This document shows, piece by piece, positions 15,308 through 30,937 of a DNA stretch of 64,000 nt. Position numbers and translations under genes: made by a program. Numbering within the stretch: the first letter of the stretch is position 1; every line of letters starts with the position of its first letter. The notes under the pieces were generated by a model, which saw nothing but the letters and a program-made list of their open reading frames with translations, made no database searches and was not told where the DNA came from. Source of the stretch: Candidatus Nomurabacteria bacterium (GTDB lineage Bacteria > Patescibacteriota > Minisyncoccia > Phycocordibacterales > UBA9973); assembly GCA_943348755.1 (NCBI GenBank), contig CALQYS010000001.1:69963-133962 (forward strand), in the 5' to 3' direction.

Positions 15308-15316
15308 ATTATTTTG

Positions 15317-16528
15317 TTATTTTAATAATATTTCAACTGCTTTGTCTAACTGAGGATCCTTCTTATTATCTAGATCTTTTCGAGTAATCTCTACTGGGTA
15401 ATCTGGAGTTAATCCTTTTTCTGAAATCGAAGTCCCATTTGGCGTTAGCCATTTAGCTACTGTGATCTTCAAGAGAGTATCAGGAGTTATTTTTATTGCT
15501 TCTTGCACAGAACCCTTACCAAAGCTTTGGCTGCCCACTAGCTTTGCACGTCCATTGTCTTGCATGGCGCCAGCAACGATTTCGGAGGCAGAGGCAGACC
15601 CGCCGTTTATTAAAATGACGAATTTTAATTTATCATTGAATACATTATATCCCCTACTTCTGTATATTTCTGGAGCCTTGTCATTACCATAATCTTCGGT
15701 TACGATGACCTTCCCACTCCTCAAGAACCAGCTTGCTATATCAACAGCTGCATCTAGATATCCACCGGGATTCCCTCGTAAATCTAGCAACAATTTGTCA
15801 GCGCCTGATTCTGAAAATTTCTGAATTGCATTATGGAAAAGACTTGCTGAATTAGCCGAAAAGCTATAAAGCTTGATCACGAAAATTCCATCCGGGCGTA
15901 GCTCGGTATCGAGAGTCGGTATATTTATGACATCTCTTACTATTTTTACTTCAATCGGATCTTTGTTCTCTTCTCGGAAAATTGTGAGTGTCACTGTCGT
16001 TCCCTTTTCCCCTCTTATTAATTTAATTGCCTTTTCTATACTCAAACCAGAAGTGACGGTTTTATCAATCTTAAGGATTTTATCACCAGGCTTGATGTTT
16101 GCTCTATCAGCCGGAGTGTTTTTAAGCGGAGCGATAACTGTAAGCACTTTGTCTTTCATCCCCACCTCCATTCCGATTCCTGTAAAGTTTCCAGCTATTT
16201 CTTCTTCAAAAGATTTTGCTTCATCTGGACTGAAAAACACGCTATATGGATCATTCAATGAACCCATAAGGCCTGAAATAGCGCCATAAACCCTATCTTG
16301 GTCAGTTGTTTTACTAGCTGTGGGATATTTTTCATTAATTGTGTTCCATACTTTCCAGAAAGGAGAAAAGTCTGCCTTTGTCGTTACAGCTGTTTCTTTA
16401 CCAGAAACACCCATGACTTTATCTATCTCAGGACGATTATGATCACCGACATATACGCCCCAAGCAAAAGCTAAGGCCACAAGGAAAACGACAGTAATGA
16501 TGTGTCTTTTTTTAGAAAAGTTCTCCAT
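15317..16528 (-). CDS. ctpA: Carboxy-terminal processing protease (S41 family, PDZ-containing)
   Basis: N-terminal TM; PDZ segment; LLLDLRGNPGGYL S41 catalytic-region motif. Confidence 0.9.
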   Translation of the reverse strand: MENFSKKRHIITVVFLVALAFAWGVYVGDHNRPEIDKVMGVSGKETAVTTKADFSPFWKVWNTINEKYPTASKTTDQDRVYGAISGLMGSLNDPYSVFFSPDEAKSFEEEIAGNFTGIGMEVGMKDKVLTVIAPLKNTPADRANIKPGDKILKIDKTVTSGLSIEKAIKLIRGEKGTTVTLTIFREENKDPIEVKIVRDVINIPTLDTELRPDGIFVIKLYSFSANSASLFHNAIQKFSESGADKLLLDLRGNPGGYLDAAVDIASWFLRSGKVIVTEDYGNDKAPEIYRSRGYNVFNDKLKFVILINGGSASASEIVAGAMQDNGRAKLVGSQSFGKGSVQEAIKITPDTLLKITVAKWLTPNGTSISEKGLTPDYPVEITRKDLDNKKDPQLDKAVEILLK

Positions 16529-16534
16529 ATTTTT

Positions 16535-16759
16535 TTATAGTTCCCCTCCATTAAAAAACTTATTTTCTGAAAAATTATCAAAAGTTTTTTCTTCTTTTAC
16601 TTCTTTTATTTTGGATTCTTTATATAAAATGTAACTTATATAAATAAACCCAAATCCAGAAATAGTCTCCAAAGTGTCCTTCCAAGAATAAGGAAAGCCC
16701 AAATATGGCAATATCGCCACCCAAATACCCATCACTAAAATAATATAAGCTTTACGCAT
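16535..16759 (-). CDS. Hypothetical small membrane protein (2 TM)
   Basis: 74 aa, two hydrophobic helices; 6 nt downstream of ctpA in the same operon. Confidence 0.4.
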   Translation of the reverse strand: MRKAYIILVMGIWVAILPYLGFPYSWKDTLETISGFGFIYISYILYKESKIKEVKEEKTFDNFSENKFFNGGEL

Positions 16760-16815
16760 TAGTACATTCTATTTCATAAATACCTAAAATGCAAACGTAC
16801 ATTTAGTCTGTAAGC

Positions 16816-18543
16816 TTACTCAAAATACTCCGGAGTATTTGTAGACATCCAGTCGAGAAGTTCTCGCATTACAGTAGATGCGTTTGCACTATTGGTCGTG
16901 GGCCCCGCTTCCATCATTATCACAAAAGCATATTTTGGATTTTCAAATGGAAGAAAACCCATCACCCAAGAATTAACTTTATTTTTTACTCCGCCGAGCT
17001 GGGCTGTACCAGTTTTAACCGCAACGTGTACATATGGCACATTAAGCGTGGTTGCCGTACCACTTGTCACAGCTTGTCTCATTCCCCCTCGTACCACATC
17101 GAAATATTCTTTTGGTAAAGCTATGGTTTGGATCTGTTCTTCTTTTATTTTGTCGGACAATATAAAATGAGGGGTTAAAAGTTTTCCATCATTAGCAATA
17201 GCAGAAACAGCCCGTGTCATTTCCATCGGTGTAACTTGGAATCCGTATTGTCCAATGGCTGTGTGATAAGTATCTCCAATGCGCCATGGATCCCCCCTAA
17301 AGTTTTTAAGTTTCCATTCTGGACTTGGAATTATGCCTTCTGTTTCATCAGGAAGATCAACTCCCGTTTTATCTCCAAAACCGAAAAGTCTGGCGTATTT
17401 CTCGATGTTTGCTATGCCAAGTCCCTTTTGATCTTCAAAACCTCCGCCGATTTCATAAAAATAAACATCAGAAGAAACCGCCAGCGCCTCTCCCATATTT
17501 GTCCAACCATTTACTCTCCAGTCCTTAAAAACTGTTTTTTTATCTGGGAAATAAGGGTTTGGGATTGAGATGGAGCCAGTTGAGAGAATCTTTTTATATT
17601 GATCGATGACACCTTCTGCTAGAGCACCCAAAGCAAAGAATGGTTTTACAATTGAGCCAGGAGTATAAAGTCCAGAAACCGTCCTATCCAAAAAGGGTTT
17701 CTTTTTATCATTTAAATAAGTATCGATTTTTTTTGCGTCTTTTCCCAGAGACAAAATCTCCGAATCATATTCTGGAAAGCTTGTAGAAGTTATAATTTCT
17801 CCGCTTTGTGTATCCATAATTACGCCCGCGCCACCGAAGAAATTATTACTTTTAGAAAGGTTTTTAATTAGAGTAAATAATTCAGATTGAATCCTTGAGT
17901 CGATACTTGTTTTTAAGTCACTTCCTCTCTTTGGACTGTTTATAACATTTTCTGAATAAATGACACCTTTTGCATTTGTTTCTATTATTTTTGATCCGTT
18001 CTCTCCCTTTATCTGATTATTGTATTCTTTTTCTAATCCATCTTTGCCCACAAAGTCAGTTTGCCAGTAATTTCCCTTACTATCTTTTGTGGGGTAACTA
18101 ACATATCCCAGCACATGCGAGAATCCTGGCTTCATATAAGTACGAATATAGGATAGATCTTCCCCAGGAGATGAATTTACTACCAGGACCTCTGTGCCGC
18201 TATCTTCTTTTTTGTTCCAAGCAAGCTCCTTTCCATTCCTATCATAAATTATACCTCTTTCAGTAAAGATATTTATTTTTTCTAGAATGTTATTTTCACT
18301 TCTTTTTCGATATATTTCTCCATTTTTTATTTGCAAGTATGTCAATCGAACACCAAATACTAAAATCATCAAAATAAAAGCAATACCGATAAAGTTGATG
18401 GTTTTTTTGGGAATTGGTTTCTCTATTCGTCCTTCAAATTGCTGGCGATTAAAATTTTGTAAGTTTTTTGAATCCAGAAAAATCTCGTCCGGTTCGACAA
18501 AAGTATCCCTTACTTTTTTTCTTATAAATTTTCTAGAGACCAT
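16816..18543 (-). CDS. mrdA: Penicillin-binding protein 2 (class B transpeptidase)
   Basis: N-terminal TM. SIVKPF (SxxK), SSDVYF (SxN-like) and KTGTA (KTG) motifs in the transpeptidase domain. Confidence 0.85.
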   Translation of the reverse strand: MVSRKFIRKKVRDTFVEPDEIFLDSKNLQNFNRQQFEGRIEKPIPKKTINFIGIAFILMILVFGVRLTYLQIKNGEIYRKRSENNILEKINIFTERGIIYDRNGKELAWNKKEDSGTEVLVVNSSPGEDLSYIRTYMKPGFSHVLGYVSYPTKDSKGNYWQTDFVGKDGLEKEYNNQIKGENGSKIIETNAKGVIYSENVINSPKRGSDLKTSIDSRIQSELFTLIKNLSKSNNFFGGAGVIMDTQSGEIITSTSFPEYDSEILSLGKDAKKIDTYLNDKKKPFLDRTVSGLYTPGSIVKPFFALGALAEGVIDQYKKILSTGSISIPNPYFPDKKTVFKDWRVNGWTNMGEALAVSSDVYFYEIGGGFEDQKGLGIANIEKYARLFGFGDKTGVDLPDETEGIIPSPEWKLKNFRGDPWRIGDTYHTAIGQYGFQVTPMEMTRAVSAIANDGKLLTPHFILSDKIKEEQIQTIALPKEYFDVVRGGMRQAVTSGTATTLNVPYVHVAVKTGTAQLGGVKNKVNSWVMGFLPFENPKYAFVIMMEAGPTTNSANASTVMRELLDWMSTNTPEYFE

Positions 18544-18810
18544 TTATTTTGACCGAACCCTTAGTTGGTTTTTTAATATTTCTAAAATTATGAAAAATCC
18601 GATGCCTATTATAAAAGAAACTCCCAACAGATTAAAAAGTTTTGGTTCTTTAATCCCATAAAGTAAATCTGATAAAAATAATAACAAGACCGCTTCCCCA
18701 AAAAAGGAGAAATATGCCATTTCGGTCAATACCAATATGATAGTTACCCAAAATGGGGCAAAAAGGACCGATAGCAAAAGTAAAATAGAAGCCAAAATTC
18801 TTAAAACCAT
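18544..18810 (-). CDS. Small polytopic membrane protein, possibly a short MreD-like protein
   Basis: 88 aa, 3 predicted TM helices, directly upstream of and abutting mrdA (the position of mreD in many mre-mrd clusters). Assignment is positional only. Confidence 0.35.
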   Translation of the reverse strand: MVLRILASILLLLSVLFAPFWVTIILVLTEMAYFSFFGEAVLLLFLSDLLYGIKEPKLFNLLGVSFIIGIGFFIILEILKNQLRVRSK

Positions 18811-18819
18811 AACCCTATC

Positions 18820-20193
18820 TTACATCGAAGCGAGTTTAGACGCCAGACCTGTATAATTTTCTGGAGTTAATTTCAACAGCTCCTTTTTTATTTTCTCGGT
18901 TACTTCCAGTGTTTCGATAAATGCATGAATGTCAGAAAGTGTGATCTCTTTTCCCCGAGCTAATTCCTTTAATTTCTCATAAGGCATCTCTGCTCCTTCA
19001 CGGCGCAGGATGGTCTGGATGGCTTCAGTGATGACTTCCGGATGTACTACTAAATCTTCCTTAATTTTTTCTTCATTCACTTTTATTTTCCCCAAGCCCT
19101 TCATTAGCGACGTGTAAGCGAGGTATGAGTGCCCGAAAGCTGTGCCGAAGGCTCGCTCGACAGTAGAGTCTGACAAATCTCGCTGAAGGCGAGAAATTGG
19201 AAGCTTGCGAGCAAAGAATTCAAACAAAGCATTCGCCAGGCCCAGGTTCCCTTCACTATTTTCGAAATCAATCGGATTTATTTTGTGCGGCATAGTTGAT
19301 GAACCCGTCTCCCCCGCTTTCGGTATTTGCCCTACCCAACCATCAGAGATATATCTCCACATGTCTTGGTTTAAGTCTAGAAGGATGGTATTTATAGCCC
19401 TGATTATGTCGAAAATAGCCGCGTAGCTATCATGACATTCTATTTGAGTGGTGATTAAGTTAACTTCGAGTTTTTGCGAACGATCTTTATTAAAGCTTTC
19501 AATAAACTTTTCACTGAATTCTATCCAGTCAATACTTGGGTAAGCGGCTATATGGGCATTGTAGTTACCAGTAGCGCCATTTAATTTGGCTTGTATTTTT
19601 ATACTTTGTAATCCTGCGAGTCTTTTTTCGAGACGAGCCACAAATACCTTCATTTCCTTACCAAAAGTCGTCGGGCTGGCTGACTGACCATGTGTACGAG
19701 CGAGCATAGGTAGATCGGCATATTTTTTTGCGAGGTTATTTAATTCTTTGATTATTTTAGAAATTTCAGGGATTATTACTTTCTCCAAAGAATCAGAAAG
19801 TATAAGTGCATAAGAAATATTATTTGTGTCTTCAGAAGTAATAGCAAAATGCAACCATTCAGTGCAGTCTTTGAGGGATGTTTTGGCAAGTTTTTCCTTT
19901 AGAAAATATTCCACCGCTTTCATGTCATGGTTTGTGGTCTCCTCTAGTTTTTTTATTTCTTCGTAAGAAGCATCGTCAAACCTTTCGTAAAGTTCTCTGA
20001 CCATTTTTATCTCAGCTGCAGTGAATTTACGTAAAGCTGTCTTACCCGATGCAGACAGCGCAATCAAGTACTCCCCCTCCATCATCACTCGGTATTTCAT
20101 CAGTGCCTGCTCAGAGAAATACTCCGCAAGCGGGCGAGTTTTATTAAAATATCTTCCGTCCAAAGGACTTATGGGGTTGATTGAGTTTTTCAT
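18820..20193 (-). CDS. purB: Adenylosuccinate lyase
   Basis: SPLDGRY N-terminal motif; fumarase/lyase family signature region GSSTMPHKINP. Confidence 0.95.
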   Translation of the reverse strand: MKNSINPISPLDGRYFNKTRPLAEYFSEQALMKYRVMMEGEYLIALSASGKTALRKFTAAEIKMVRELYERFDDASYEEIKKLEETTNHDMKAVEYFLKEKLAKTSLKDCTEWLHFAITSEDTNNISYALILSDSLEKVIIPEISKIIKELNNLAKKYADLPMLARTHGQSASPTTFGKEMKVFVARLEKRLAGLQSIKIQAKLNGATGNYNAHIAAYPSIDWIEFSEKFIESFNKDRSQKLEVNLITTQIECHDSYAAIFDIIRAINTILLDLNQDMWRYISDGWVGQIPKAGETGSSTMPHKINPIDFENSEGNLGLANALFEFFARKLPISRLQRDLSDSTVERAFGTAFGHSYLAYTSLMKGLGKIKVNEEKIKEDLVVHPEVITEAIQTILRREGAEMPYEKLKELARGKEITLSDIHAFIETLEVTEKIKKELLKLTPENYTGLASKLASM

Positions 20194-21128
20194 TATATTT
20201 TATATTTCTTTAAATTATTCTCTATTCTTTTTAAAGTATCTTCTCCTTCGTTGATTTGGAACTTTTCTCCCGTTATCTGTTCATATATTTTAATGTATCG
20301 ACGAGAGAGCTCGATCACCATATCGGTTGGAGCTTTGGGTAGTTTCTCGTCTTTATATGGATCACAATTTTCTTTAAACCATAAACGCAAGAATTCTTTA
20401 TCGAAATTTTCCGGTTCTAGACCTTTCTCTATCCTTTCTTTGTATGTATTTGCCTGCCAGTAGCGGGAAGAGTCTGGAGTGTGGATCTCATCTATCAGCA
20501 TGACTTTACCATCAGGCGTGAGTCCGAATTCATATTTGGTGTCTACTAGTATTAGTCCCCTTGTTAAGGCAATTTCCTGTCCACGAGCGAAAAGTTTCAA
20601 AGATATATCGCAGACCTGTTTCCAAATTTCTGGTTTCATCATTTTTTCTTCTAAAATGATTTTACTTGTCAGCGGGCGGTCATGAGCTTCAAACTTGGTA
20701 GTTGGAGTGATAATTGGCACATCGAGCTTTTGATTTTTCTTTATGCCCTCTTTAAGGGTCATATCTCCAAAAACTCTTTCCCCCTTTTGATACAAGGTCC
20801 AGATAGATGTGCCCGTCACTCCGGTGATATATCCACGCACAACCATCTCGACTGGCAGCACGGTGCATTTCTTGCCGACGACGACGTTCGGATCAGGGAA
20901 ATCAATGGCGTGATTTTGCACTATGTCTTTGGTATTTTCGAACCAGAATTTACTGATCTGAGTCAATACTTGGCCTTTGTATGGCACTAGGGCTAAATTT
21001 CTATCAAAAGCAGAATACCTGTCAGTTGAAATCATAATAACCTTATCTTTTTGATTGTAGACGTCGCGTACTTTACCGACATATTTTTCCCCTAAGTTTT
21101 TAAAATCTGTTTTTTCTAGAATGTTCAT
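20193..21128 (-). CDS. purC: SAICAR synthetase (long form)
   Basis: YVGKVRDVY N-terminal motif; 311 aa. Confidence 0.9.
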   Translation of the reverse strand: MNILEKTDFKNLGEKYVGKVRDVYNQKDKVIMISTDRYSAFDRNLALVPYKGQVLTQISKFWFENTKDIVQNHAIDFPDPNVVVGKKCTVLPVEMVVRGYITGVTGTSIWTLYQKGERVFGDMTLKEGIKKNQKLDVPIITPTTKFEAHDRPLTSKIILEEKMMKPEIWKQVCDISLKLFARGQEIALTRGLILVDTKYEFGLTPDGKVMLIDEIHTPDSSRYWQANTYKERIEKGLEPENFDKEFLRLWFKENCDPYKDEKLPKAPTDMVIELSRRYIKIYEQITGEKFQINEGEDTLKRIENNLKKYKI

Positions 21129-21164
21129 AACGCAGAGTAATTTGATTTTTCTTTTATAATCATA

Positions 21165-22208
21165 TTAATTAAACCAATTTAATACTTCTTTTAAAATGAC
21201 CTGCTTATTCCCTTTCACTACTCTACCTATTTCGTAGCTCTCCACACCGCACTTTTTCAGGTGGCTCTGTATTGTATCTACAAAATCTTTCTTCACCACT
21301 GCCGTCATGCCTACTCCCATATTAAATGTCCTCATCATATCATTATCTTCCAGATCCCCAAATTTTTTCAATACCTTAAAAATGTTCAAAATTTTGATTT
21401 TACCGATATCAATCTCCGCATTTAAATTCTCAGGCAAGATTCTATTCAAATTTTCTTTTATTCCGCCTCCTGTGATGTGTGCGAGTCCTACCAATCCGTC
21501 GTTTCCAAACAAATCCTTCAAGCAGTTGTAGTAGCCAAAATGTGGAGTGAGGATACTTTCTATAAAATTCTTGCCATCAACTTTTTCTTTTAAAATTTCT
21601 GGACTCTTCTCCATTATTTTCTGCACAAGGGAGAAGCCATTTGTATGTATGCCTCTTGAAGCTAGACCCAAGACCACATCTCCTTCTTGTATTTTAGAGC
21701 CGTCGATTATTTTTTTCTTTTCTACCACGCCTACGATGCTAGCGGTCAAAATGTAAGTTCCTATGGCAAGTACACTCGGCTGTTCCGAGGTCTCGCCTCC
21801 AGTCAATACGCAGTCATTTTCTTTACATGCTTTAGAAAAAGCGGAAACCATTTTTAGGATTATTTCTTTGTCTATTTTCCCGCAGACGATGCAGTCTTGG
21901 ACAGATAGGGGTTTGGCTCCCATGACTATTGCATCATTAACTAGGTGATTTATTAAATCAAAACAAATGGTGTCTATACTTCTATGTTTTAAGGCCAACT
22001 TTTGCTTTGAGCCGGGCTCTTCTGTCTTAAACACTAGCACCGGTTCTTGATATTCAGGAAAAGATCCGTCGAACAAAGTAGCAAAAGCGCCTGCTTTGTT
22101 CAGCACGCGCGCATTTCCACTATTATTTAAACTTTTAGCCATTTCATTTTTCGTCGCATTGGCTTTGTCTATATCAACTCCTGAAGTTTTATACGACAAT
22201 TTCGGCAT
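21165..22208 (-). CDS. purM: AIR synthetase
   Basis: LSYKTSGVDIDKANAT N-terminus; start set at MPKLSYK, 1 nt after the purE stop. Confidence 0.9.
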   Translation of the reverse strand: MPKLSYKTSGVDIDKANATKNEMAKSLNNSGNARVLNKAGAFATLFDGSFPEYQEPVLVFKTEEPGSKQKLALKHRSIDTICFDLINHLVNDAIVMGAKPLSVQDCIVCGKIDKEIILKMVSAFSKACKENDCVLTGGETSEQPSVLAIGTYILTASIVGVVEKKKIIDGSKIQEGDVVLGLASRGIHTNGFSLVQKIMEKSPEILKEKVDGKNFIESILTPHFGYYNCLKDLFGNDGLVGLAHITGGGIKENLNRILPENLNAEIDIGKIKILNIFKVLKKFGDLEDNDMMRTFNMGVGMTAVVKKDFVDTIQSHLKKCGVESYEIGRVVKGNKQVILKEVLNWFN

Positions 22209-22209
22209 T

Positions 22210-22731
22210 TTATTTATTCTGAAGATATTGCTTGTATCCAACTTTTGAAAGCTTCTCCCCCTTCGTCTCTATCTCTTTGCTCATCTTTTCTTTGTAAGCG
22301 ATCAATTTTCTCTCTAAATCTTTATCAGACAAGGCGAGCATCTGTACAGCCAAAATACCAGCGTTTTTACCTCCATTTATCCCAACGGTGGCGACAGGCA
22401 CCCCGGGAGGCATCCCCACTGTAGAGAGGAGTGAATCAAGTCCGTCTAGACTTTTGGTTTTTATTGGAATTCCTATTACAGGTAGAGTAGTGAGTGAAGA
22501 TACTACACCAGCCAAATGAGCTGCTCCCCCTGCACCCGCAATAATTATTTTTAATCCACGATCTTTTACATTAGTTACATATTTATGCACGATCTCGGGA
22601 GAGCGATGCGCCGAAGCGACTGTGATCTCATAAGACACTCCGAACTCTTCCAGCACTTTCGCTGCCTCAGACATCACTTCTAGATCTGAATCCGAACCCA
22701 TGAGTATGGAAACCTTTGTGTCTTTTTTCAT
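22210..22731 (-). CDS. purE: PurE (N5-CAIR mutase / AIR carboxylase family)
   Basis: VSILMGSDSDLEVM...ASAHRSPE conserved PurE motifs; 173 aa. Confidence 0.9.
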   Translation of the reverse strand: MKKDTKVSILMGSDSDLEVMSEAAKVLEEFGVSYEITVASAHRSPEIVHKYVTNVKDRGLKIIIAGAGGAAHLAGVVSSLTTLPVIGIPIKTKSLDGLDSLLSTVGMPPGVPVATVGINGGKNAGILAVQMLALSDKDLERKLIAYKEKMSKEIETKGEKLSKVGYKQYLQNK

Positions 22732-22777
22732 TTGCTCTATCTTATCATTTTTTTAATTTAAAACAACCTAAAAACTA

Positions 22778-22826
22778 GCTTAAAACGAAAAGGACCCTGC
22801 ATCGCGCGATGCGCGCAATGCAGGGT
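22778..22826 (-). terminator. Intrinsic terminator (GC-rich hairpin plus U-tract) after the high-GC ORF
   Basis: Hairpin CCCTGCATCGCGCG-at-GCGCGCAATGCAGGG (14-bp stem, one mismatch) followed on the minus strand by UCCUUUUCGUUUUAAG. Confidence 0.5.
22781..22794. repeat. Direct repeat copy 1: TAAAACGAAAAGGA (identical 14-mer at 23765-23778)
   Basis: Exact 14/14 identity between the U-tract regions of the two terminators flanking the high-GC block. Confidence 0.7.
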
Positions 22827-22897
22827 ATCCTTGGTCGATCAGACGATTTCTCGTCCGGCCCAGAATCTACGTCTGAGCTCGGTGATGTGAGGCAGGC

Positions 22898-23566
22898 TTA
22901 CGCCGCCTGCAATGTGCCCTCACCACGGCTGGCCGGCTGGGGTTCGGTGGGCGCGTAGCCTTGTTCGGCGGTGCCGGGATCACCAGCAGGTCCAGCGGGC
23001 AGCTGATCGGCGTCACCAGGTTTGGCGGTCACAGTGGTGTTCTCAGCGCCGAGTTCTTCGCGGAGCTGCGGCGTAGCGGCCGGCTTCAAGAAATGCCTCG
23101 CCGCCAGTTCGTGGAACTTCGTCGCATCAATGAGCGGGTTGATGGCCGCCGCGTGAGTGATGCCGGTCAAGTTGAGGCTAAATTCTGCCTCGATGCCTGC
23201 GATCGTGGGGGCGTCGAATTCATAGCCTCCCGCGAATGCGTTCCATTTTCCGCGCTCAGTCACGTCGTCGAGTAAGTTGCCTTCTTGGCCCCGGATCCAC
23301 GCCAGGAACTCCGGAAACGACGGCAGGTGGTCGAGCGAGGTGATCCACTGGTTCAGGGCTTCACGCTTCACGTTCAAGCCCCGGGTCTTGTCCTGGTAGC
23401 CCTCGAGGATGAGCAGGTCGAACCCGTCACCGCGGCCCCATTCGTCAACCGTGGCCTTGATCATCTCGATCAGGATCTTCTGCCACAGGCGCAGGAGGTG
23501 GGCCCAACCAGTGAACACATCGGCAAAGCCAGACGGATGCAGCGGGAGTAGTTGTAGTGTTTTCAT
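22898..23566 (-). CDS. Hypothetical protein encoded in a high-GC (about 62%) block, with a Pro/Ala/Gly-rich C-terminal tail
   Basis: 222-aa ORF, the longest in an abrupt GC jump. It has its own promoter and terminator. No family recognised. Low-complexity tail (PGDADQLPAGPAGDPGTAEQGYAPTEPQPASRGEG) is typical of high-GC taxa. Confidence 0.5.
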   Translation of the reverse strand: MKTLQLLPLHPSGFADVFTGWAHLLRLWQKILIEMIKATVDEWGRGDGFDLLILEGYQDKTRGLNVKREALNQWITSLDHLPSFPEFLAWIRGQEGNLLDDVTERGKWNAFAGGYEFDAPTIAGIEAEFSLNLTGITHAAAINPLIDATKFHELAARHFLKPAATPQLREELGAENTTVTAKPGDADQLPAGPAGDPGTAEQGYAPTEPQPASRGEGTLQAA

Positions 23567-23723
23567 GCGTTTGTTTTTGTTGTATGTTTCTGATGACCAT
23601 CACGCGAACCTAAGTGGGTCCGTTTGTTGTGTGACAGTCAGCCAAATTACGATGTATTTACATGCATAATCTCGCCGACTGCCACAAATTTCACATCAAT
23701 TTTAAAGAACAAATAACTACGTT

Positions 23724-23751
23724 ATATTACATTTTTTTGCTATTTTGTCAA
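23724..23751 (-). promoter_or_regulatory. Sigma70-like promoter TTGACA-16-TAATAT oriented toward the high-GC ORF
   Basis: Minus strand reads TTGACAaaatagcaaaaaaatgTAATAT; ORF start about 150 nt downstream. Confidence 0.4.
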
Positions 23752-23764
23752 TATTGGATGGGTC

Positions 23765-23778
23765 TAAAACGAAAAGGA
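23765..23778. repeat. Direct repeat copy 2: TAAAACGAAAAGGA
   Basis: Identical to 22781-22794. Confidence 0.7.
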
Positions 23779-23807
23779 GCCGGCATACGATTAGAACGTA
23801 GTCCGGC
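23765..23807 (-). terminator. Intrinsic terminator after the small-peptide micro-operon
   Basis: Hairpin GCCGGcaTACG-attagaa-CGTAgtCCGGC followed on the minus strand by UCCUUUUCGUUUUAG. Confidence 0.45.
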
Positions 23808-23852
23808 TTCTCCTTGAGAGTTAATTAGTAACCCCCACAACTGTTTCTCGGT

Positions 23853-24026
23853 TCACGCCGAGTACATGTTCAGGAACAAGACGAGAATGCCCGTTCCTAG
23901 ATACACCAAACCTAAACCCATCCCAGTCACGAGGACTGGGAAGAGGATGGGGTGTTTCCTCCACCACAGGCGAAGCGCATACAAATGCAGCGTCTCGTCG
24001 ACCATCAACATTAGTTCTTCTTTCAT
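23853..24026 (-). CDS. Small hydrophobic peptide 3 (57 aa)
   Basis: Hand-translated: MKEELMLMVDETLHLYALRLWWRKHPILFPVLVTGMGLGLVYLGTGILVLFLNMYSA. One TM. Below the 60-aa ORF-track cutoff. Confidence 0.35.
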   Translation of the reverse strand: MKEELMLMVDETLHLYALRLWWRKHPILFPVLVTGMGLGLVYLGTGILVLFLNMYSA

Positions 24027-24038
24027 AGCTTTCGTGGG

Positions 24039-24143
24039 TTAATTTTTAATCACCTCCAACAATGCCAGGAATACGATTCCGGCAAATGCCAGCCCCAAGA
24101 GTAAGGGGCACCAAAACCCATATCGACGGATTATTTTTTCCAT
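24039..24143 (-). CDS. Small hydrophobic peptide 2 (34 aa)
   Basis: MEKIIRRYGFWCPLLLGLAFAGIVFLALLEVIKN; one TM; 12 nt upstream of peptide 3. Confidence 0.3.
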   Translation of the reverse strand: MEKIIRRYGFWCPLLLGLAFAGIVFLALLEVIKN

Positions 24144-24164
24144 ATTCTCCTTTTGGTTGTTGAG

Positions 24165-24263
24165 TTACCAGTGATTCTTAAGCCACACCGTTCCTGCTAT
24201 CAAGAGAACAAGCAGGACGAGACCAATTGTATGAGGAAGTGCAAACTCCTTGAATTGTTTCAT
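24165..24263 (-). CDS. Small hydrophobic peptide 1 (32 aa)
   Basis: MKQFKEFALPHTIGLVLLVLLIAGTVWLKNHW; one TM; first gene after the promoter at 24385-24413. Confidence 0.3.
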   Translation of the reverse strand: MKQFKEFALPHTIGLVLLVLLIAGTVWLKNHW

Positions 24264-24384
24264 TGTGAGTGCATTGTTTTGTTTTTTTAGTTTAGCTACG
24301 GAATACAAATTACAAAAAAATAAGCTGTATTCCACAGCCAAACACAACGTGAACCAAATTTTTAAAGAACCATCTTACCCTTGT

Positions 24385-24413
24385 ATTATATACTTTTTTA
24401 AGCCAAAAGTCAA
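24385..24413 (-). promoter_or_regulatory. Consensus-like sigma70 promoter TTGACT-17-TATAAT driving the small-peptide micro-operon
   Basis: Minus strand reads TTGACTtttggcttaaaaaagtaTATAAT, starting 15 nt downstream of the purH stop. The roughly 115-nt leader contains an 8-bp stem-loop (24300-24333). Confidence 0.45.
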
Positions 24414-24427
24414 TAGAACCTTAAATC

Positions 24428-25975
24428 TTAATGCTTAAAATGTCTAAATCCAGTAGCCACCATCGCCATATTGTAGGTATTCGCCATATCTATGGATGCT
24501 TGGTCGTTCTTTGAGCCTCCGGGCTGGATGACAGCCGTGACGCCCATCTTGCCTGCTAGCTCTACGCAGTCTGGAAATGGAAAGAACGCCTCAGAGGAAA
24601 GCACTGAGCCGTTGAGCGAGAACCCAAACTTCCCTGCTTTATCTATAGCTTGCTTGAGCGCATCAATTCGAGAAGTCTGTCCACAACCCATGGCAAGCAG
24701 TGTGCCGTCTTTGACGAGGGCGACAGAGTTCGACTTTAAATGTTTTGTAGCAATGGCTGCGATGAGTAAATCCTTTTTCTCGGACTCTGTCGGCGCGCGC
24801 TTGGTCGTTACTTTCAGGTCTCCTTCAGTCTCTACATGAGTGTCTCTATCTTGAATAAGTAATCCATTAAAACAAGTACGGACTTGTCTGTTCGGGAACA
24901 TAGGATTCTTCCCCGCCTGCACCAGCTGTGCTGAAGGCATTGCGGGCAGGCATTTTAGAATCCTGCAATCCTTTTTCTCCATTAATATATCGAGAGCACC
25001 TTTTTCAAAGTCTGGAGCAATGATGACTTCGATAAAAAGCTTTTGCTTTTTAATTAGTTTTGCTATATCTTCGGTTATTGTCCTGTTCCCTGCCAATATT
25101 CCACCGAAAGCCGACAATGGGTCTGCATTATAAGCTGCCTTGTATGCTTCAAAAAGTTTGCCTTCGGGTCGCACCGCCAGACCGCATGCATTCATGTGCT
25201 TGATAATGACGAAAGCTGGATCTGTAAAATCACTTACTGCAAGTATTGCTGCTTCTGTGTCTATTAAATTATTAAAAGAAAGTTCTTTGCCATGAAGCTG
25301 GGTGAAGCTCTCAGCGAGACTGCCGACGAATTCTGCTTTTTGGTGCGGGTTCTCTCCGTAGCGGAGCTCGGTGCCTTGGAAGTATCCGCGGATAGCGCTG
25401 TCGTAATGGCTTGTCACTTCAAATGCGTTACCAGCAAACTTCTTGCGCTCTTCTAGGGTTGTCTCATTTCCCTTTTTTAAAATGTCAGCTAGTTCTGCGT
25501 ATTGATTCTTGGAAGGTATAACCACTACGTCATTGAAATTCTTCGCGGCCGCACGAATTAGAGATATTCCGCCGATGTCTATCTTCTCTATTATCTCCTC
25601 TTCTGTTCCGCCCTGATTGTTTCTTTTGGCCAGAGTTTCTTCAAATGGATATAGGTCCACTATCACGAGGTCTATGTCTTCGATCTTGTGTTTAGCCTTT
25701 TCTTTTTGATCGTCTGTATTGTCTCGGCGATTTAAAATCCCACCAAAGATTTGTGGTTGAAGCGTCTTTACCCTTCCACCAAAAAGCGCTGGATAGTTAG
25801 TAATGGATTCGACTTCAGTGACAGACACACCTAATTTACGAATAAATTCTGCCGTCCCACCAGTCGAAATGATTTTGACGTCCTGTTTAGCGAGGAGCTT
25901 TACTATCTCGTCCAGCCCGTCTTTATTAAAAACCGAAATCAGCGCTGAGTTAATCTTCTTTTTCATTGAGGGCAT
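24428..25975 (-). CDS. purH: Bifunctional AICAR transformylase / IMP cyclohydrolase
   Basis: N-terminal MGS-like IMPCH domain (ALISVFNKDGL...ISTGGTA) and C-terminal AICARFT domain; 515 aa. Confidence 0.95.
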   Translation of the reverse strand: MPSMKKKINSALISVFNKDGLDEIVKLLAKQDVKIISTGGTAEFIRKLGVSVTEVESITNYPALFGGRVKTLQPQIFGGILNRRDNTDDQKEKAKHKIEDIDLVIVDLYPFEETLAKRNNQGGTEEEIIEKIDIGGISLIRAAAKNFNDVVVIPSKNQYAELADILKKGNETTLEERKKFAGNAFEVTSHYDSAIRGYFQGTELRYGENPHQKAEFVGSLAESFTQLHGKELSFNNLIDTEAAILAVSDFTDPAFVIIKHMNACGLAVRPEGKLFEAYKAAYNADPLSAFGGILAGNRTITEDIAKLIKKQKLFIEVIIAPDFEKGALDILMEKKDCRILKCLPAMPSAQLVQAGKNPMFPNRQVRTCFNGLLIQDRDTHVETEGDLKVTTKRAPTESEKKDLLIAAIATKHLKSNSVALVKDGTLLAMGCGQTSRIDALKQAIDKAGKFGFSLNGSVLSSEAFFPFPDCVELAGKMGVTAVIQPGGSKNDQASIDMANTYNMAMVATGFRHFKH

Positions 25976-25993
25976 TTTAGCACAATAGTATCA

Positions 25994-27535
25994 TTACTCA
26001 AATTCTGTCGTAGCGGGGGGTTTGGGGGTCATGTCGAAGAAGACGCGGACGATGTCTTTATGCTTGGTGAGAGCACTAGTGATCTCGTTTATAACGGCTT
26101 CTGGGAAGTAATAGCCTTTTGCAGTCATGAAGTCTACAGTCTGCACAGCGCGGACGGCTAGAGAGTGTCCATAGACGCGTTCATCCCCTTTTACTCCGAC
26201 GGAGTTTACACCTAGGAGGGCGACGATGAGCTGGGAGATTTCTTTATTCAAATTATGTTTCTTTAAAATATCGGCGACAGTCTCATCTGCTTCTCGTACA
26301 AGCTCGATGTTTTCTTTGGATACAGGTGTACCCACAACTCGCAGGAATAGTCCGGGGCCTGGAAAAGGATTCCTTTCATACACAGCTGGTGGGAGTTTCA
26401 ATACACGAGCGAGTTCGCGAACTTCGTATTTAAATAGATTTCTAAAAGGATGTAGGTCTTCCACTTCCCATGAAAGGCCGACGTTGTGGTGTGTCTTGAT
26501 CATGGCTGATTCTCCTGCTTTACCGCTCTCGATGATGTCTGTGGCGAGCGTTCCCTGTACGATGTAACCCGCTTGATGTTTCGCTATTTGTTCTTCAAAT
26601 TTTTGTTTGTATACTTCACGGAATTTTGCGCGTTTTTCTTCTCCATCTATCGTCGTGCCAATATTTTTTATAAATTCTTTCGCCGCGTCTATGATTACCA
26701 GATTTTTACTAGCGTTTTTACCTAAGGCACTCGTAGTGTTTGCCTTTAATTCTTCTACTTCGCCGGCTCGTAGCCCACCAGTGTCGATGGCGACGCATAT
26801 AAGTCTCTCATTTAAGACTGGCGCGAGCACTGCTGCGAGTGTCGTTGAGTCTACTCCGCCGGAAACGCCTAAGATTAAATTCTTTTTGTCTTTGCTCATG
26901 ATGTCCAAGACTTCTTTTTGTATTTCATGAATCAGATTTATCGGATCCCAGTCTTTTACACAACCAGAAAGGTCGAGGAAATTCTGGAGTATCTTTTTAC
27001 CTTCTTTGGTGTCTACCACTTCTGGGTGAAATTGTATGCCGAGCACTCGATTGTTTTTATCAGTCATGGCAGCCACTCCGCCGGATGTAGCGATAGAGGT
27101 AAAACTCTTTGGGAGTTTAGTAACTGTATCTCCATGACTTGCCCAGACTTCTGTCTTTTCTTTGATGCCTTTAAAAAGTGGATGCCCGGTGTCCGGAGTC
27201 ACTGTGGCTGGTCCGTATTCGCGGTGCGCGAGTGGACGCTCGACAGTGCCGCCGAGCTTGTGTGCGAGAAGCTGCATGCCATAGCACACGCCGAGGACAA
27301 AATATTTTTGGCCGGTAGTGTCGAGAGATTTTGGTAGTTCAGGTGTACCTTCACTATGCACGCTCCAGTGGCTGCCGGAGAGGATGACTGATTTTAGAGT
27401 ATTTTTCTTGAGCCAATCATCAGCCTTTATCGGAGGGAGTATGAGGCTGCGTACTCCGAGCTCGCGCAGAGTCCGCCCGATGACCAGCGTATATTGCGAG
27501 CCGTAATCCACGATCAGTATTTGTATACTATTCAT
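25994..27535 (-). CDS. guaA: GMP synthase (glutamine-hydrolysing)
   Basis: Class I GATase N-domain (GVCYGMQ), ATP-PPase SGGVDS motif, C-terminal dimerisation domain. Confidence 0.95.
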   Translation of the reverse strand: MNSIQILIVDYGSQYTLVIGRTLRELGVRSLILPPIKADDWLKKNTLKSVILSGSHWSVHSEGTPELPKSLDTTGQKYFVLGVCYGMQLLAHKLGGTVERPLAHREYGPATVTPDTGHPLFKGIKEKTEVWASHGDTVTKLPKSFTSIATSGGVAAMTDKNNRVLGIQFHPEVVDTKEGKKILQNFLDLSGCVKDWDPINLIHEIQKEVLDIMSKDKKNLILGVSGGVDSTTLAAVLAPVLNERLICVAIDTGGLRAGEVEELKANTTSALGKNASKNLVIIDAAKEFIKNIGTTIDGEEKRAKFREVYKQKFEEQIAKHQAGYIVQGTLATDIIESGKAGESAMIKTHHNVGLSWEVEDLHPFRNLFKYEVRELARVLKLPPAVYERNPFPGPGLFLRVVGTPVSKENIELVREADETVADILKKHNLNKEISQLIVALLGVNSVGVKGDERVYGHSLAVRAVQTVDFMTAKGYYFPEAVINEITSALTKHKDIVRVFFDMTPKPPATTEFE

Positions 27536-29059
<1,524 letters not shown>

Positions 29060-29060
<1 letters not shown>

Positions 29061-30397
29061 TGAAAGCTAAGAATAAAGTTAAATCAGGCTTCATCGACGT
29101 AGTGGTGGGTCTGCAGTGGGGCGATGAGGGTAAAGGTAAAAATATAGATGAGCTTCTCTCTCACGGAGCTTATACTGGAGTCGCACGTTTTCATGGCGGA
29201 GCAAATGCCGGTCATACTATTAAATTAGGAGATAAAACTTTTGTGGGGCACATCGTGCCTTCTGGTTGTTTTCATAAGAATATTGAATTGTATATCGGTA
29301 ATGGTGTTGTAGTCGATGCAGTTTCGTTAATCAAAGAGAAAAACGAAATTAAAAATTTAGGTTTTGATATCACAAAACGTCTTTATGTTTCGAATCGCGC
29401 AAAGTTAGTTTCGCACCTTCATCCTTTTTTAGACCAGGCTGATGAATATCGCCGAAATAAATTGGGGACAAAAGTAGGCACCACTTCGAGAGGCATTGGC
29501 CCAGCTTATAGTGATGTCCGAGCCAGGAGGGCTCTTCTCGTTGGAGATGTGTTATCACCGGATTTTGCCGAAAAAGAAGTTACCCTTTCTGAATTTCATA
29601 TGAATCTTTTGAATATGTATCAGGATAAATATGGTTTTGAAATTAATTTGGGAAAAATAAAAGAAGCGAAAGAAAAATGGGACGATGCCATAAAAGAACT
29701 CCGAAAGTTACAAATTTGTGACTTATCCTTACTTATACAAAGTAGACTTTCTAAAGGGAAAAATATCCTAGCTGAAGGCGCGCAAGCAATTATGCTCGAC
29801 ATAGACTTTGGTGATTATCCAAACGTCACCAGCAGCAATACCCTGCCAGCCAATGTTTGCCTCGGCCTCGGCGTACCCCATACGATGCTACGAGACGTCT
29901 ACGGCGTTATTAAGGCATATACAACAAAAGTAGGAGGTGGAAACTTTCCATCCAGAATGAAAGATCAAACTCTAGAAAAAGCCTTTCAGGACGCAGGGCA
30001 TGAATTTGGAGCTACCACCGGCCGGCCTCGGATGTGCGGCTGGCTTGACCTTTTCGCCCTTCGCCATGCCATCGTTCTCTCTGGCGCAAATAAAATTTTT
30101 ATCAATAAAGCGGATATTTGCTTGAGCGATAAAATAAAAGTGGTTACTGGATATAAAAGTAAGGGAAAAATTGTAAAAGAATTTCCACTTTATCTAAGCG
30201 ACGTCGCAGATGTCATAACCGAAGAAATGCCGGGTTGGGGTGATGCTAATTACGGGATCAATAAAAAACAAAAAACTTCTAAAGAACTTTCTTCATATTT
30301 AAAATACATAAAAGGTAAACTTTCCGATCTAAACGTCAAAATAATCTCCGTCGGCACCGGCCCAGACCGAGACCATTTCTTCAATTGGGAGAAGTAG
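29060..30397 (+). CDS. purA: Adenylosuccinate synthetase
   Basis: GLQWGDEGKGK P-loop-like N-terminus; GATTGRPRMCGWLD motif; 1-nt overlap with the guaB stop. Confidence 0.95.
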
Positions 30398-30490
30398 ATC
30401 TAACTTGTAATTTATCTATAATATTGCATAATATTCTCAAACGAGGTCTTATACCTCAAAACAAACCGCAGTTCAGTAACGAAAACCTCT

Positions 30491-30820
30491 ATGAAAACGT
30501 TCTTTGTAAACCTTAATGCGTCGATTGACGTAAAAGCCGACAACTTCGTGGCAGGCTACCACAACCGTCCGATCATCCTTTTAGCAATGCTGCTTGTTGG
30601 AATAATGACCTTCCTTGGGGCCATTATGAACACGCTGTGTTTCTTTGGGATTATTCCGCCATTGCGGAATGACGAGTGGGCTGTATGGCATTACAGCTTT
30701 ACCACTCTCTCATTCCTTTGTCTGCCTTTGGTCGCTATGTGGTGGGTTCACATTTGCAGGAATGCTTCTTGGCATCTCTACCATTGCATGGATAAAACAC
30801 TTGGAGACTTTGTGGACTGA
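30491..30820 (+). CDS. Hypothetical small membrane protein in an orphan GC-elevated region
   Basis: 109-aa ORF with 2-3 hydrophobic helices, preceded by TTGTAA-16-CATAAT. Region GC is about 45-50% versus about 38% for flanking genes. No homology recognised. Confidence 0.3.
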   Translation: MKTFFVNLNASIDVKADNFVAGYHNRPIILLAMLLVGIMTFLGAIMNTLCFFGIIPPLRNDEWAVWHYSFTTLSFLCLPLVAMWWVHICRNASWHLYHCMDKTLGDFVD

Positions 30821-30937
30821 GTCCCATGCTGAATCATTAATCGCCCAAACGATGAGGAATCGTCCGAGGGCGATTTTTCATTTCTGCTTAGCTTCCCTAG
30901 ATTATCATATATGATATGTTAAGGAATTATTAGTGCG

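What the first reader, a model, noticed from the sequence alone, without database searches (positions are those of the whole stretch)
22795..23570. Abrupt roughly 62%-GC gene cassette inserted between purH and purE
GC jumps from about 38% to about 62% exactly at 22795 and falls back near 23570. The block encodes one 222-aa protein (minus strand) of no recognisable family, with a disordered Pro/Ala/Gly-rich tail typical of high-GC lineages. It has its own near-consensus promoter (TTGACA-16-TAATAT, about 150-nt leader) and its own GC-rich terminator. It therefore interrupts what would otherwise be a contiguous purH to purE-purM-purC-purB transcription unit. Interpretation: either horizontal acquisition from a high-GC donor or an assembly chimera.
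Basis: seen in the sequence. Interest (0 to 1): 0.7.

Follow-up and report, generated by a model that had tools for sequence, protein, structure and literature searches.

The report
Foreign high-GC gene beside purE
A low-GC ultra-small (CPR, Nomurabacteria-like) bacterium carries one self-contained, horizontally acquired high-GC gene of unknown function at a variable spot between two purine-synthesis genes; this is a real but fairly ordinary case of gene transfer, not an assembly error.

Summary
Window 22795-23570 is 61.6% GC against 39.5% (sd 4.8%) elsewhere, and it is the only such island in 64 kb. The 222-aa minus-strand ORF has GC3 0.74; the other 40 long ORFs have 0.21-0.46.

The protein is not family-less. 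It is a divergent relative of DUF5069 (PF16798; hhalign 99.4%, E 2e-21), an all-helical domain of unknown function found in 54-65% GC bacteria, followed by a disordered tail.

The host is a Nomurabacteria-like CPR bacterium. Related genomes have purH-purE spacers of 35, 109, 415, 1041, 1158 and 1388 bp, holding unrelated ORFs or none. The site is therefore a variable hotspot, and none of these relatives has the block.

The unit is about 984 bp: an AT-rich promoter and structured leader, the GC-rich ORF, and a strong terminator. It is bracketed by a 20/22-nt direct repeat that forms the T-tract of two terminators. purE keeps its own conserved promoter.

A chimera is very unlikely, though no reads were inspected. 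The ORF is intact with natural ends, the flanks return to the same genome, a second assembly is identical, and the repeat is shorter than any usual assembly k-mer.

The closest homolog (31% identity) shows the same GC-rich-ORF-in-AT-rich-context mosaic on another contig.

Verdict: a moron-like, single-gene horizontal acquisition. Function, donor and insertion mechanism are unknown.

The parts
22898..23566 (-). orf222: CDS of a 222-aa protein. Residues about 18-165 form a divergent DUF5069-like all-helical domain; residues about 177-222 form a disordered Pro/Ala/Gly-rich tail.
22794..22826 (-). T2: intrinsic terminator hairpin of orf222, a perfect 15-bp GC-rich stem with a 3-nt loop, followed by the T-tract.
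   Evidence: Terminator scan; dG -33.5 kcal/mol, z -6.15.
22827..22897 (-). GC-rich 3' UTR of orf222. The foreign-composition DNA extends about 100 nt past the stop codon.
   Evidence: Sequence; GC profile.
22781..22802 (-). DR2: the purE-side copy of the 22-nt direct repeat (ATGCAGGGTCCTTTTCGTTTTA on the minus strand), comprising the 3' stem base and T-tract of T2.
   Evidence: the repeat finder D3, 20/22 identical, spacing 984 bp. The exact 14-mer occurs only at these two sites in 64 kb. An exact repeat of 14 nt or more appeared in 3 of 500 dinucleotide shuffles.
23765..23786 (-). DR1: the purH-side copy of the direct repeat (ATGCCGGCTCCTTTTCGTTTTA on the minus strand), comprising the 3' stem base and T-tract of T1.
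23779..23814 (-). T1: terminator hairpin of moderate GC that closes the upstream small-ORF unit. It shares the outer frame CAAGGA...TCCTTTTCGTTTTA with T2.
   Evidence: Fold dG -18.4, z -3.0; alignment of T1 and T2.
23724..23751 (-). P2: sigma-70-like promoter TTGACA-16-TAATAT lying in AT-rich DNA.
   Evidence: Consensus scan, 10/12 matches. This is a prediction only.
23567..23723 (-). AT-rich (about 36% GC) 5' leader of about 150 nt, with a near-perfect hairpin of about 26 bp (23631-23686) and an A/C-rich tract without a Shine-Dalgarno motif before the ATG.
   Evidence: RNA fold -51.9 kcal/mol, z -5.39. No Rfam family at E<=1. No other copy in the window or in IMG/VR.
22738..22766 (-). Conserved purE-proximal promoter-like element (TTGTTTTAAATTAAAAAAATGATAAGATA). 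This is host backbone lying immediately downstream of the insert.
   Evidence: It is the only part of the spacer conserved in relatives: L088 28/29, L170 26/29, L002 26/30.
23853..24413 (-). Upstream neighbour unit in the same spacer: promoter-like site TTGACT-17-TATAAT (24385-24413) and three small hydrophobic ORFs in one frame (within 24165-24347, 24039-24143 and 23853-24026). The last of these has GC3 0.69.
   Evidence: No homolog in the relatives' spacers.

Best explanation
The block is a genuine, horizontally acquired single-gene transcription unit. It sits in the purH-purE intergenic region of a low-GC, Nomurabacteria-like CPR bacterium, and related genomes show that this site is a variable hotspot.

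The coding part and its 3' UTR and terminator stem (22795-23570) keep the composition of a high-GC lineage. The gene encodes a divergent member of the DUF5069 family, which is otherwise native to 54-65% GC bacteria.

How it works (inferred): a sigma-70-like promoter in AT-rich DNA drives an mRNA with a structured leader of about 150 nt. The 222-aa protein, a helical DUF5069-like domain plus a disordered tail, is translated from an A/C-rich start region with no Shine-Dalgarno motif. The strong terminator T2 then stops transcription just before the conserved purE promoter. The insert is therefore insulated and does not need to disturb purE-purM-purC-purB expression. In this respect it behaves like a phage 'moron', but on a chromosome.

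The unit of about 984 bp is bracketed by a 20/22-nt direct repeat that forms the T-tract of two terminators. This suggests that insertion took place in, or duplicated, the resident terminator; the mechanism itself is not shown.

The biochemical function is unknown. Canonical DUF5069 genes lie in, or are fused to, small-molecule catabolic genes (Amidohydro_2 fusions, GFO/IDH/MocA and PQQ dehydrogenases, ABC transporters). My best guess, at low confidence, is a non-enzymatic helical binding or accessory protein.
For: Composition: the block is 61.6% GC against 39.5 +/- 4.8%, it is the only island in 64 kb, and GC3 is 0.74 against 0.21-0.46 for the other long ORFs.

Absence in relatives: purH-purE spacers are 35 bp (L171), 109 bp (L169, the nearest purE at 84%), 415 bp (L002), 1041 bp (L088), 1158 bp (L170) and 1388 bp (L168), against 1696 bp here. 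Their cargo ORFs are unrelated to each other, and none has orf222. Only the purE-proximal promoter element is conserved.

Family: exhaustive phmmer over 1.84 billion representatives gave 19 hits; the best non-self hit had E 6e-11 at 32% identity. 12 of 17 aligned relatives hit PF16798. Profile-profile comparison gave 99.4%, E 2e-21. Named members come from Verrucomicrobiae, Chloroflexi, Armatimonadetes, Gemmatimonadetes, Eremiobacterota, Sulfobacillus and Thermaerobacter. Their loci are 54-65% GC, with gene GC3 of 0.57-0.79.

Reality of the assembly: the Logan assembly of ERR5863124 is identical to the window over 20,669 bp, block included. The ORF is intact, and its N-terminus aligns with that of the family.

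Expression signals: promoter and terminator and structured leader.

Direct repeat.

Precedent: hundreds of genomic islands and individually transferred genes are reported in Patescibacteria (PMC12455944). Morons are defined as units with their own promoter and terminator and deviant GC (PMC3594210).
Against: No donor is known. The closest protein among about 15 billion is only 31-32% identical, so 'recent transfer from a high-GC donor' rests on composition and family distribution alone.

The promoter and leader inside the repeat-bounded unit are AT-rich (35.6% GC). The unit is therefore a mosaic, and a single-step transfer from a high-GC genome does not explain it.

The closest homolog (L172) shows the same mosaic in another AT-rich context although the two proteins are only 31% identical. 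That is awkward for two independent recent transfers and could mean the high GC is maintained.

There is no integrase, transposase or tRNA nearby, so the insertion mechanism is unexplained. Promoter activity is only a consensus match. No reads were inspected.
Confidence: 0.8

Rival explanations
1. Assembly chimera: a fragment of a co-occurring high-GC genome was spliced into the CPR contig by the assembler.
For: This is a metagenome-derived contig and the compositional switch is abrupt. A short repeat sits at both ends of the unit. All three records that carry the gene appear to come from one sample, so independent read sets are lacking.
Against: The foreign segment is an intact ORF with a natural N-terminus and its own terminator. 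After it, the contig returns to the same genome at exactly the syntenic position, directly upstream of the conserved purE promoter, which would require two matching mis-joins. A different assembly (Logan) gives a base-identical sequence over 20.7 kb. The shared exact sequence is 14 nt, below the k used by metagenome assemblers (my knowledge: 21 or more). The repeat-bounded unit also includes 194 bp of AT-rich DNA, so the supposed contaminant would itself be a mosaic. The closest homolog shows the same mosaic on an unrelated contig from another run.
Confidence: 0.03
2. A mobile cassette that recombines at terminator-like hairpins. The two terminators share a conserved outer frame (CAAGGA...TCCTTTTCGTTTTA) around variable inner stems. 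On this view they are recombination sites, analogous to integron attC sites or to the att sites of cis-mobilisable elements, and promoter-ORF-terminator cassettes accumulate at the purH-purE hotspot through a recombinase acting in trans.
For: A 20/22-nt direct repeat brackets a 984-bp unit. The exact 14-mer is unique to the two sites in 64 kb and was reached in only 3 of 500 shuffles. The spacer holds two successive promoter-ORF-terminator units that end in the same frame. The same site carries different cargo in relatives.
Against: There are no integron core sites (RYYYAAC/GTTRRRY) in the hairpins (read directly from the sequence). No recombinase gene lies within +/-10 kb. No comparable repeats flank the cargo in L088, L168, L170 or L002. 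The frame occurs nowhere else in the window. The AAGGA/TCCTT part is simply the base of the terminator stem, and a similar T-tract precedes the purE promoter in relatives. The repeat may therefore be a duplicated or shared resident terminator.
Confidence: 0.08
3. A long-resident gene of AT-rich ultra-small bacteria, or of their mobile gene pool, whose high GC is actively maintained rather than being a mark of recent transfer.
For: The closest homolog, P0003 on L172, is also a GC-rich ORF (56% GC, GC3 0.68) between AT-rich flanks (34% and 23% GC), with its own TTGACA promoter, long leader and terminator. The two proteins are nevertheless only 31% identical. In both cases the compositional switch coincides with the start codon.
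Against: The gene is absent from all the related genomes examined at this locus. Both proteins are singletons among 15 billion sequences. I know of no mechanism that would hold GC3 at 0.7 in a genome whose GC3 is 0.4. The family is otherwise native to high-GC genomes with matching composition. The host of L172 is unknown because the contig is only 1 kb.
Confidence: 0.07

Closest known systems
Phage 'moron' elements (independent transcription units added between conserved genes; PMC3594210)
   Same: A single ORF with its own promoter-like site and its own intrinsic terminator. Its GC content differs sharply from its neighbours. It lies between genes that are adjacent in related genomes, and it is insulated from the flanking operon.
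   Different: It is not in a phage or prophage: no phage genes lie within +/-10 kb, and there were no hits in phage records, IMG/VR or BFVD. It sits in a chromosomal purine-biosynthesis cluster of a CPR bacterium.
Horizontally transferred genes and small genomic islands in Patescibacteria (PMC12455944)
   Same: A compositionally deviant accessory gene in a streamlined CPR genome, at a strain- or species-variable locus, with an unsampled donor.
   Different: It is a single gene of about 1 kb with no integrase or tRNA. The apparent donor is a high-GC non-CPR lineage, whereas most transfers reported there are between Patescibacteria.
DUF5069 (Pfam PF16798) proteins; structural neighbour PDB 3omd (Leptospirillum rubarum, unknown function)
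   Different: The protein does not reach the Pfam threshold on its own (no hit at E<=1). It has substitutions at family-invariant positions (P22 to L, E77 to L), an insertion of about 8 residues after the GFD motif that it shares only with P0003, and a 45-residue disordered tail. It also stands alone rather than inside a catabolic operon.
Integron gene cassettes and attC sites
   Same: A short single-ORF unit ending in an imperfect or perfect hairpin. The two hairpins share conserved outer sequences and have variable inner stems. Two such units lie in tandem.
   Different: There are no R''/R' core sites, no IntI or attI, and the cassette has its own promoter. The hairpins are ordinary Rho-independent terminators with T-tracts.

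Membership tests
DUF5069 (PF16798) | Scores above Pfam's gathering threshold against the PF16798 HMM | tested here: not met
   hmmscan of orf222 against Pfam-A found no family at E<=1, whereas 12 of its 17 aligned relatives do hit PF16798.
DUF5069 (PF16798) | Homology to canonical members over the whole domain | tested here: met
   hhalign of orf222+P0003 against 21 canonical members gave probability 99.4%, E 2.1e-21 over 148 columns. phmmer hits against the whole library ranged from E 6e-11 to 1e-3. Conserved residues are R26, K30, G46, G48, D50, P82, F87 and W90.
DUF5069 (PF16798) | The same fold as a solved or predicted family member | tested here: inconclusive
Phage moron | Inserted between genes that are adjacent in related genomes | tested here: met
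   The purH-purE spacer is 35 bp in L171 and 109 bp in L169.
Phage moron | Own promoter and own factor-independent terminator | tested here: inconclusive
   The terminator prediction is strong (dG -33.5). The promoter is only a 10/12 consensus match in a region not enriched for such matches. There are no expression data.
Phage moron | Nucleotide composition differs from neighbouring genes | tested here: met
   61.6% against 39.5% GC, and GC3 0.74 against about 0.40.
Phage moron | Resides in a phage or prophage genome | tested here: not met
   The neighbours are purN, purD, purA, guaB, guaA, purH, purE, purM, purC, purB, a PBP, a Ctp protease and L9/L27. There were no phage, IMG/VR or BFVD matches.
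Classical genomic island | Integrase or transposase gene and/or a tRNA insertion site | tested here: not met
   No such Pfam domain was found in the genes within +/-10 kb, and there is no tRNA in 15000-32000.
Classical genomic island | Flanking direct repeats | tested here: met
   A 20/22-nt direct repeat at 22781-22802 and 23765-23786. Its exact 14-nt core was matched in length in 3 of 500 shuffles.
Integron cassette | attC hairpin with R'' (RYYYAAC) and R' (GTTRRRY) core sites, and an IntI integrase nearby | tested here: not met
   Neither core motif is in or beside T1 or T2 (sequence). No integrase domain was found within +/-10 kb.
Assembly chimera | Junctions unsupported by spanning reads, or a coverage discontinuity | not testable with these tools
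   Reads are not available here. The indirect evidence is against a chimera: an identical independent assembly, an intact gene and terminator, a return to the syntenic site, and a repeat of only 14 exact nt.

The most novel reading that the evidence does not exclude
orf222 and its only close relative (P0003 on L172) define a DUF5069 subfamily that AT-rich ultra-small bacteria have captured repeatedly from GC-rich bacteria, possibly their physical hosts. Alternatively, the subfamily travels among them as a promoter-ORF-terminator cassette that enters at terminator hairpins. In that case the gene would mark symbiont-host contact, and the terminator-frame repeat would be the footprint of an undescribed, recombinase-independent or trans-acting way of capturing cassettes in CPR genomes.
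Probability: 0.1. Interest if true: 0.65.

Novelty: new member of a known kind. Interest (0 to 1): 0.3.

Why it matters
The finding is a clean, well-bounded example of a foreign gene entering a streamlined CPR genome. It shows that the purH-purE junction is a recurrent site of gene gain in this lineage. It also adds a divergent branch to the uncharacterised DUF5069 family.

If the donor could be found, the gene might point to the organism this episymbiont-type bacterium lives with. For annotation and binning, it shows that an extreme GC island inside a MAG contig need not be contamination.

It does not reveal a new kind of system, and the protein's function remains unknown.

Tried and rejected
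- **Family libraries:** Pfam, NCBIfam, PHROGs and PADLOC scans of orf222 gave no hit.
- **RNA in the leader:** an Rfam E-value scan of 20000-27000 gave only a chance GadY match at E 0.63, so there is no riboswitch, group II intron or known leader RNA.
- **Phage or plasmid origin:** tblastn against phage and plasmid records found nothing. An IMG/VR scan with the family alignment and another with the leader hairpin found nothing. BFVD Foldseek found nothing below E 2.5.
- **Promoter duplication:** I tested whether the orf222 promoter and leader duplicate the upstream promoter P1 (weak repeats D1 and D2). The local alignment score of 25 was reached by 16 of 201 AT-rich control windows, so this was rejected.
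- **Leader homology:** the leaders of orf222 and L172 align at 68% in AT-rich sequence, which is not convincing.
- **Multicopy terminator frame or hairpin:** the other two near-matches to the terminator frame lie inside coding sequence, and the leader hairpin is unique.
- **Repeats around relatives' cargo:** none were found.
- **Homology among hotspot cargo ORFs:** there is none. Only one of them has a Pfam domain, a weak STAS match in L168.
- **Function from DUF5069 gene neighbourhoods:** there is no single conserved partner. Contexts include an Amidohydro_2 fusion next to an ABC transporter, GFO/IDH/MocA and polysaccharide-degradation genes, and a PQQ dehydrogenase with cytochrome c.
- **Literature:** searches for DUF5069 and for the run accession returned nothing.
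- **Structure library:** the afdb50 fold library was unavailable.

Full report
**1. Observation**

The composition profile shows 200-nt windows at 0.41-0.44 GC up to 22700-22899. They jump to 0.65-0.68 at 22800-23099, stay at 0.55-0.62 to 23599, and return to 0.38-0.46 after 23500-23700. A cumulative GC walk puts the boundaries at 22791 and 23546.

The block 22795-23570 is 61.6% GC. Outside it, 300-nt windows average 39.5% (sd 4.8%, maximum 54.7%), and no other window in the 64 kb exceeds 55%.

The block holds one long minus-strand ORF, 22898..23566, of 222 aa. Its GC3 is 0.74. The flanking pur and gua genes have 0.39-0.46, and all 40 other ORFs of at least 200 aa in the window have 0.21-0.46.

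The terminator folds at -33.5 kcal/mol with z -6.2.

**2. Host and locus**

The genes around the block are purN, purD, purA, guaB, guaA and purH on one side, and purE, purM, purC and purB on the other.

The closest purE proteins in 5.8 billion clusters are 79-84% identical. Where named, they come from Candidatus Nomurabacteria or Paceibacterota. The host is therefore a low-GC CPR bacterium whose own species is represented only by this contig.

**3. Relatives: the site is a variable hotspot and the block is absent**

Six related genomes keep the purH-purE order. Their spacers compare with the window as follows.

| Locus | purH-purE spacer |
|---|---|
| L171 | 35 bp |
| L169 (nearest purE, 84%) | 109 bp |
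| L002 | 415 bp |
| L088 | 1041 bp |
| L170 | 1158 bp |
| L168 | 1388 bp |
| Window | 1696 bp |

The ORFs in these spacers are unrelated to one another and to orf222. Almost all lack any Pfam or PADLOC family. The L088 cargo is also GC-enriched, reaching 58% in 200 nt, with a 178-aa ORF at GC3 0.60.

Only one element of the window's spacer is conserved in relatives. It is the 29-nt purE-proximal promoter-like sequence at 22738-22766, matching L088 at 28/29, L170 at 26/29 and L002 at 26/30. The block therefore lies immediately upstream of the host's own purE promoter.

Some relatives do have purH next to purE without the insert. In others, and in this genome even without the block, the two genes are already separated by other cargo, a terminator and a purE promoter. 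The block does not break a simple operon.

**4. Anatomy of the unit**

Reading the minus strand from purH, the spacer contains the following.

- A promoter-like site, TTGACT-17-TATAAT (24413..24385).
- Three small hydrophobic ORFs in one frame. The last of them has GC3 0.69.
- Terminator T1, folding at -18.4 kcal/mol.
- Promoter P2.
- A leader of about 150 nt at 35.6% GC. It folds far better than shuffles (-51.9 kcal/mol, z -5.4), mainly through a hairpin of about 26 bp at 23631-23686.
- orf222.
- A GC-rich 3' UTR of 70 nt.
- Terminator T2.
- The purE promoter.

T1 and T2 share an identical outer frame, CAAGGA...ATGC.GG.TCCTTTTCGTTTTA. Their inner stems are only about 50% alike.

The resulting direct repeat, 22781-22802 and 23765-23786, is 20/22 identical with a spacing of 984 bp. 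Its exact 14-nt core occurs only at these two sites in 64 kb. An exact repeat that long appeared in 3 of 500 dinucleotide shuffles of the region.

The repeat-bounded unit is thus a mosaic: 194 bp of AT-rich promoter and leader, then about 776 bp of GC-rich ORF, 3' UTR and terminator stem. There is no integrase, transposase or tRNA nearby. No comparable repeats flank the cargo in relatives.

I take the repeat to mean that insertion occurred in, or duplicated, the resident terminator. The mechanism is not established.

**5. The protein**

Direct scans against the family libraries found nothing. The word-indexed search found only the protein itself and one weak hit carrying PF16798.

An exhaustive phmmer search with residues 1-170 against 1.84 billion representatives gave 19 hits at E<=1e-3. 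The best non-self hit was P0003, at E 6e-11 and 32% identity.

The hits align over a clear core, HLPRLWxK...GxGFD...PTYPxFEAWI...LN..DW..FH, and 12 of the 17 aligned proteins hit Pfam DUF5069. A profile of orf222 plus P0003 matches a profile of 21 canonical DUF5069 proteins with probability 99.4% and E 2e-21 over 148 columns.

orf222 is therefore a divergent DUF5069 relative, not a family-less protein. It does fall below Pfam's own threshold, and it carries substitutions at two family-invariant positions.

No paper in the library mentions DUF5069.

Named family members come from Verrucomicrobiae, Chloroflexi, Armatimonadetes, Gemmatimonadetes, Handelsmanbacteria, Eremiobacterota, Sulfobacillus and Thermaerobacter. 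The loci I fetched are 54-65% GC, and the genes there have GC3 of 0.57-0.79. This is the same composition as orf222.

Gene neighbourhoods are catabolic but not consistent. They include:

- fusions to Amidohydro_2, next to an ABC transporter and a second DUF5069 gene;
- GFO/IDH/MocA, SDR and glycoside-hydrolase genes;
- a PQQ dehydrogenase with cytochrome c.

Function therefore stays unknown. A helical accessory or binding protein is my low-confidence guess.

**6. The closest homolog repeats the pattern**

P0003 lies on a 1022-bp contig from another run (L172). Its ORF (229-768) is 55.9% GC with GC3 0.68. The upstream 228 bp are 33.8% GC, and the downstream convergent gene is 23% GC.

It too has a TTGACA-17-TAAAGT site about 125 nt upstream, an A/C-rich pre-ATG tract and its own terminator. 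The two proteins are only 31% identical, and both are singletons in the 15-billion-protein collection.

So this subfamily has been seen twice, each time as a GC-rich ORF inside AT-rich DNA with its own signals. Three readings are possible: two independent captures from GC-rich donors, a cassette that circulates among AT-rich hosts, or (least likely) GC content that is maintained. I cannot tell these apart here. The leaders are not convincingly homologous.

**7. Chimera?**

I could not inspect reads. The indirect evidence is strongly against a chimera.

- The Logan assembly of the run, an 86-kb contig from a different assembly pipeline than the 185-kb record, is identical to the window over 20,669 bp, block included.
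- The foreign segment is a complete gene whose N-terminus matches the family N-terminus, and it has its own terminator.
- The contig resumes at the exact syntenic point.
- The only sequence shared by the two junctions is 14 exact nucleotides. To my knowledge that is shorter than the k-mers used by metagenome assemblers.
- The repeat-bounded unit is itself part AT-rich.

**8. Comparison with known kinds, and verdict**

Functionally the unit looks like a phage moron: its own promoter and terminator, deviant GC, and a position between genes that are adjacent in relatives (PMC3594210). It is not in a phage, though.

It is one more case of the horizontal gene gain already documented in Patescibacteria, where hundreds of islands and individually transferred genes have been reported (PMC12455944). 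It fails the defining tests for an integron cassette and for a classical integrase or tRNA island.

The finding is real and well bounded, but it is of a known kind. The mildly unusual points are the GC-rich rather than AT-rich direction of the anomaly, the mosaic AT-rich expression signals, the terminator-frame repeat, and the recurrence of the mosaic in the only close homolog.

Confidence that this is a genuine horizontally derived insertion: about 0.8. Interest: 0.3.

Noticed in passing
window 23853-24413 (minus strand): Between purH and terminator T1 there is a near-consensus promoter-like site (TTGACT-17-TATAAT, 11/12 matches). It is followed by three small hydrophobic ORFs (about 32, 34 and 57 aa) in one reading frame, separated by single stop codons. 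The last one (23853..24026) has GC 51% and GC3 0.69, which is also atypical for the host. No homologs were found in the relatives' spacers.
   Followed up: partly
window 23631-23686 (minus strand, in the orf222 leader): A near-perfect hairpin of about 26 bp (GUGGCAGUCGGCGAGAUUAUGCAUGUA / UACAUCGUAAUUUGGCUGACUGUCAC) dominates a leader that folds with z -5.4. It matches no Rfam family and has no other copy in the window or in IMG/VR. Its role (regulatory structure, processing site or recombination site) is unknown.
   Followed up: partly
L172:1-1022 (Logan contig from SRR22388031): The closest homolog of orf222 (P0003, 31% identity) is also a GC-rich ORF (56% GC, GC3 0.68) embedded in AT-rich DNA (34% and 23% GC), with its own TTGACA promoter, long leader and terminator. 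This is the same mosaic seen independently.
   Followed up: partly
L088:2957-3997, L168:3113-4500, L170:3343-4500, L002:4583-4997, L169:61-169, L171:3115-3149: The purH-purE junction is hypervariable among Nomurabacteria-like genomes, with spacers from 35 to 1388 bp that carry unrelated orphan ORFs. The L088 cargo is also GC-enriched (up to 58%). One L168 ORF has a weak STAS-domain match.
   Followed up: yes
L002:5537-6475 and L090:3883-4857, compared with window 21165-22241: The purM gene downstream of purE is only 37-39% identical to the window's purM in L002 and L090, but 68-75% identical in L088, L089, L091 and L092, although purE is 74-82% identical in all of them. This suggests that purM was replaced by a distant homolog in some lineages.
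   Followed up: no
whole window (ORFs of at least 200 aa): Only 8 of 41 long ORFs have a Shine-Dalgarno-like 4-mer upstream. Many have a -10-like box (for example GCTAATAT, GCTAAAAT, TATACT) within about 10 nt of the ATG, which suggests frequent leaderless or very short-leader mRNAs in this organism. The 150-nt leader of orf222 is atypical by comparison.
   Followed up: no
window about 12900-33500 (L001): This CPR-type genome has a large cluster of purine genes (purN, purD, purA, guaB, guaA, purH, purE, purM, purC, purB). To my knowledge that is uncommon among streamlined CPR bacteria, most of which lack de novo nucleotide synthesis.
   Followed up: no
P0067, P0070, P0071 (455 aa) and L173:5361-7368: Some DUF5069 domains are fused to an Amidohydro_2 (PF04909) domain. 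In L173 the fusion gene sits beside a stand-alone DUF5069 gene and an NMT1-type ABC transporter. This may be a lead to the family's function.
   Followed up: partly
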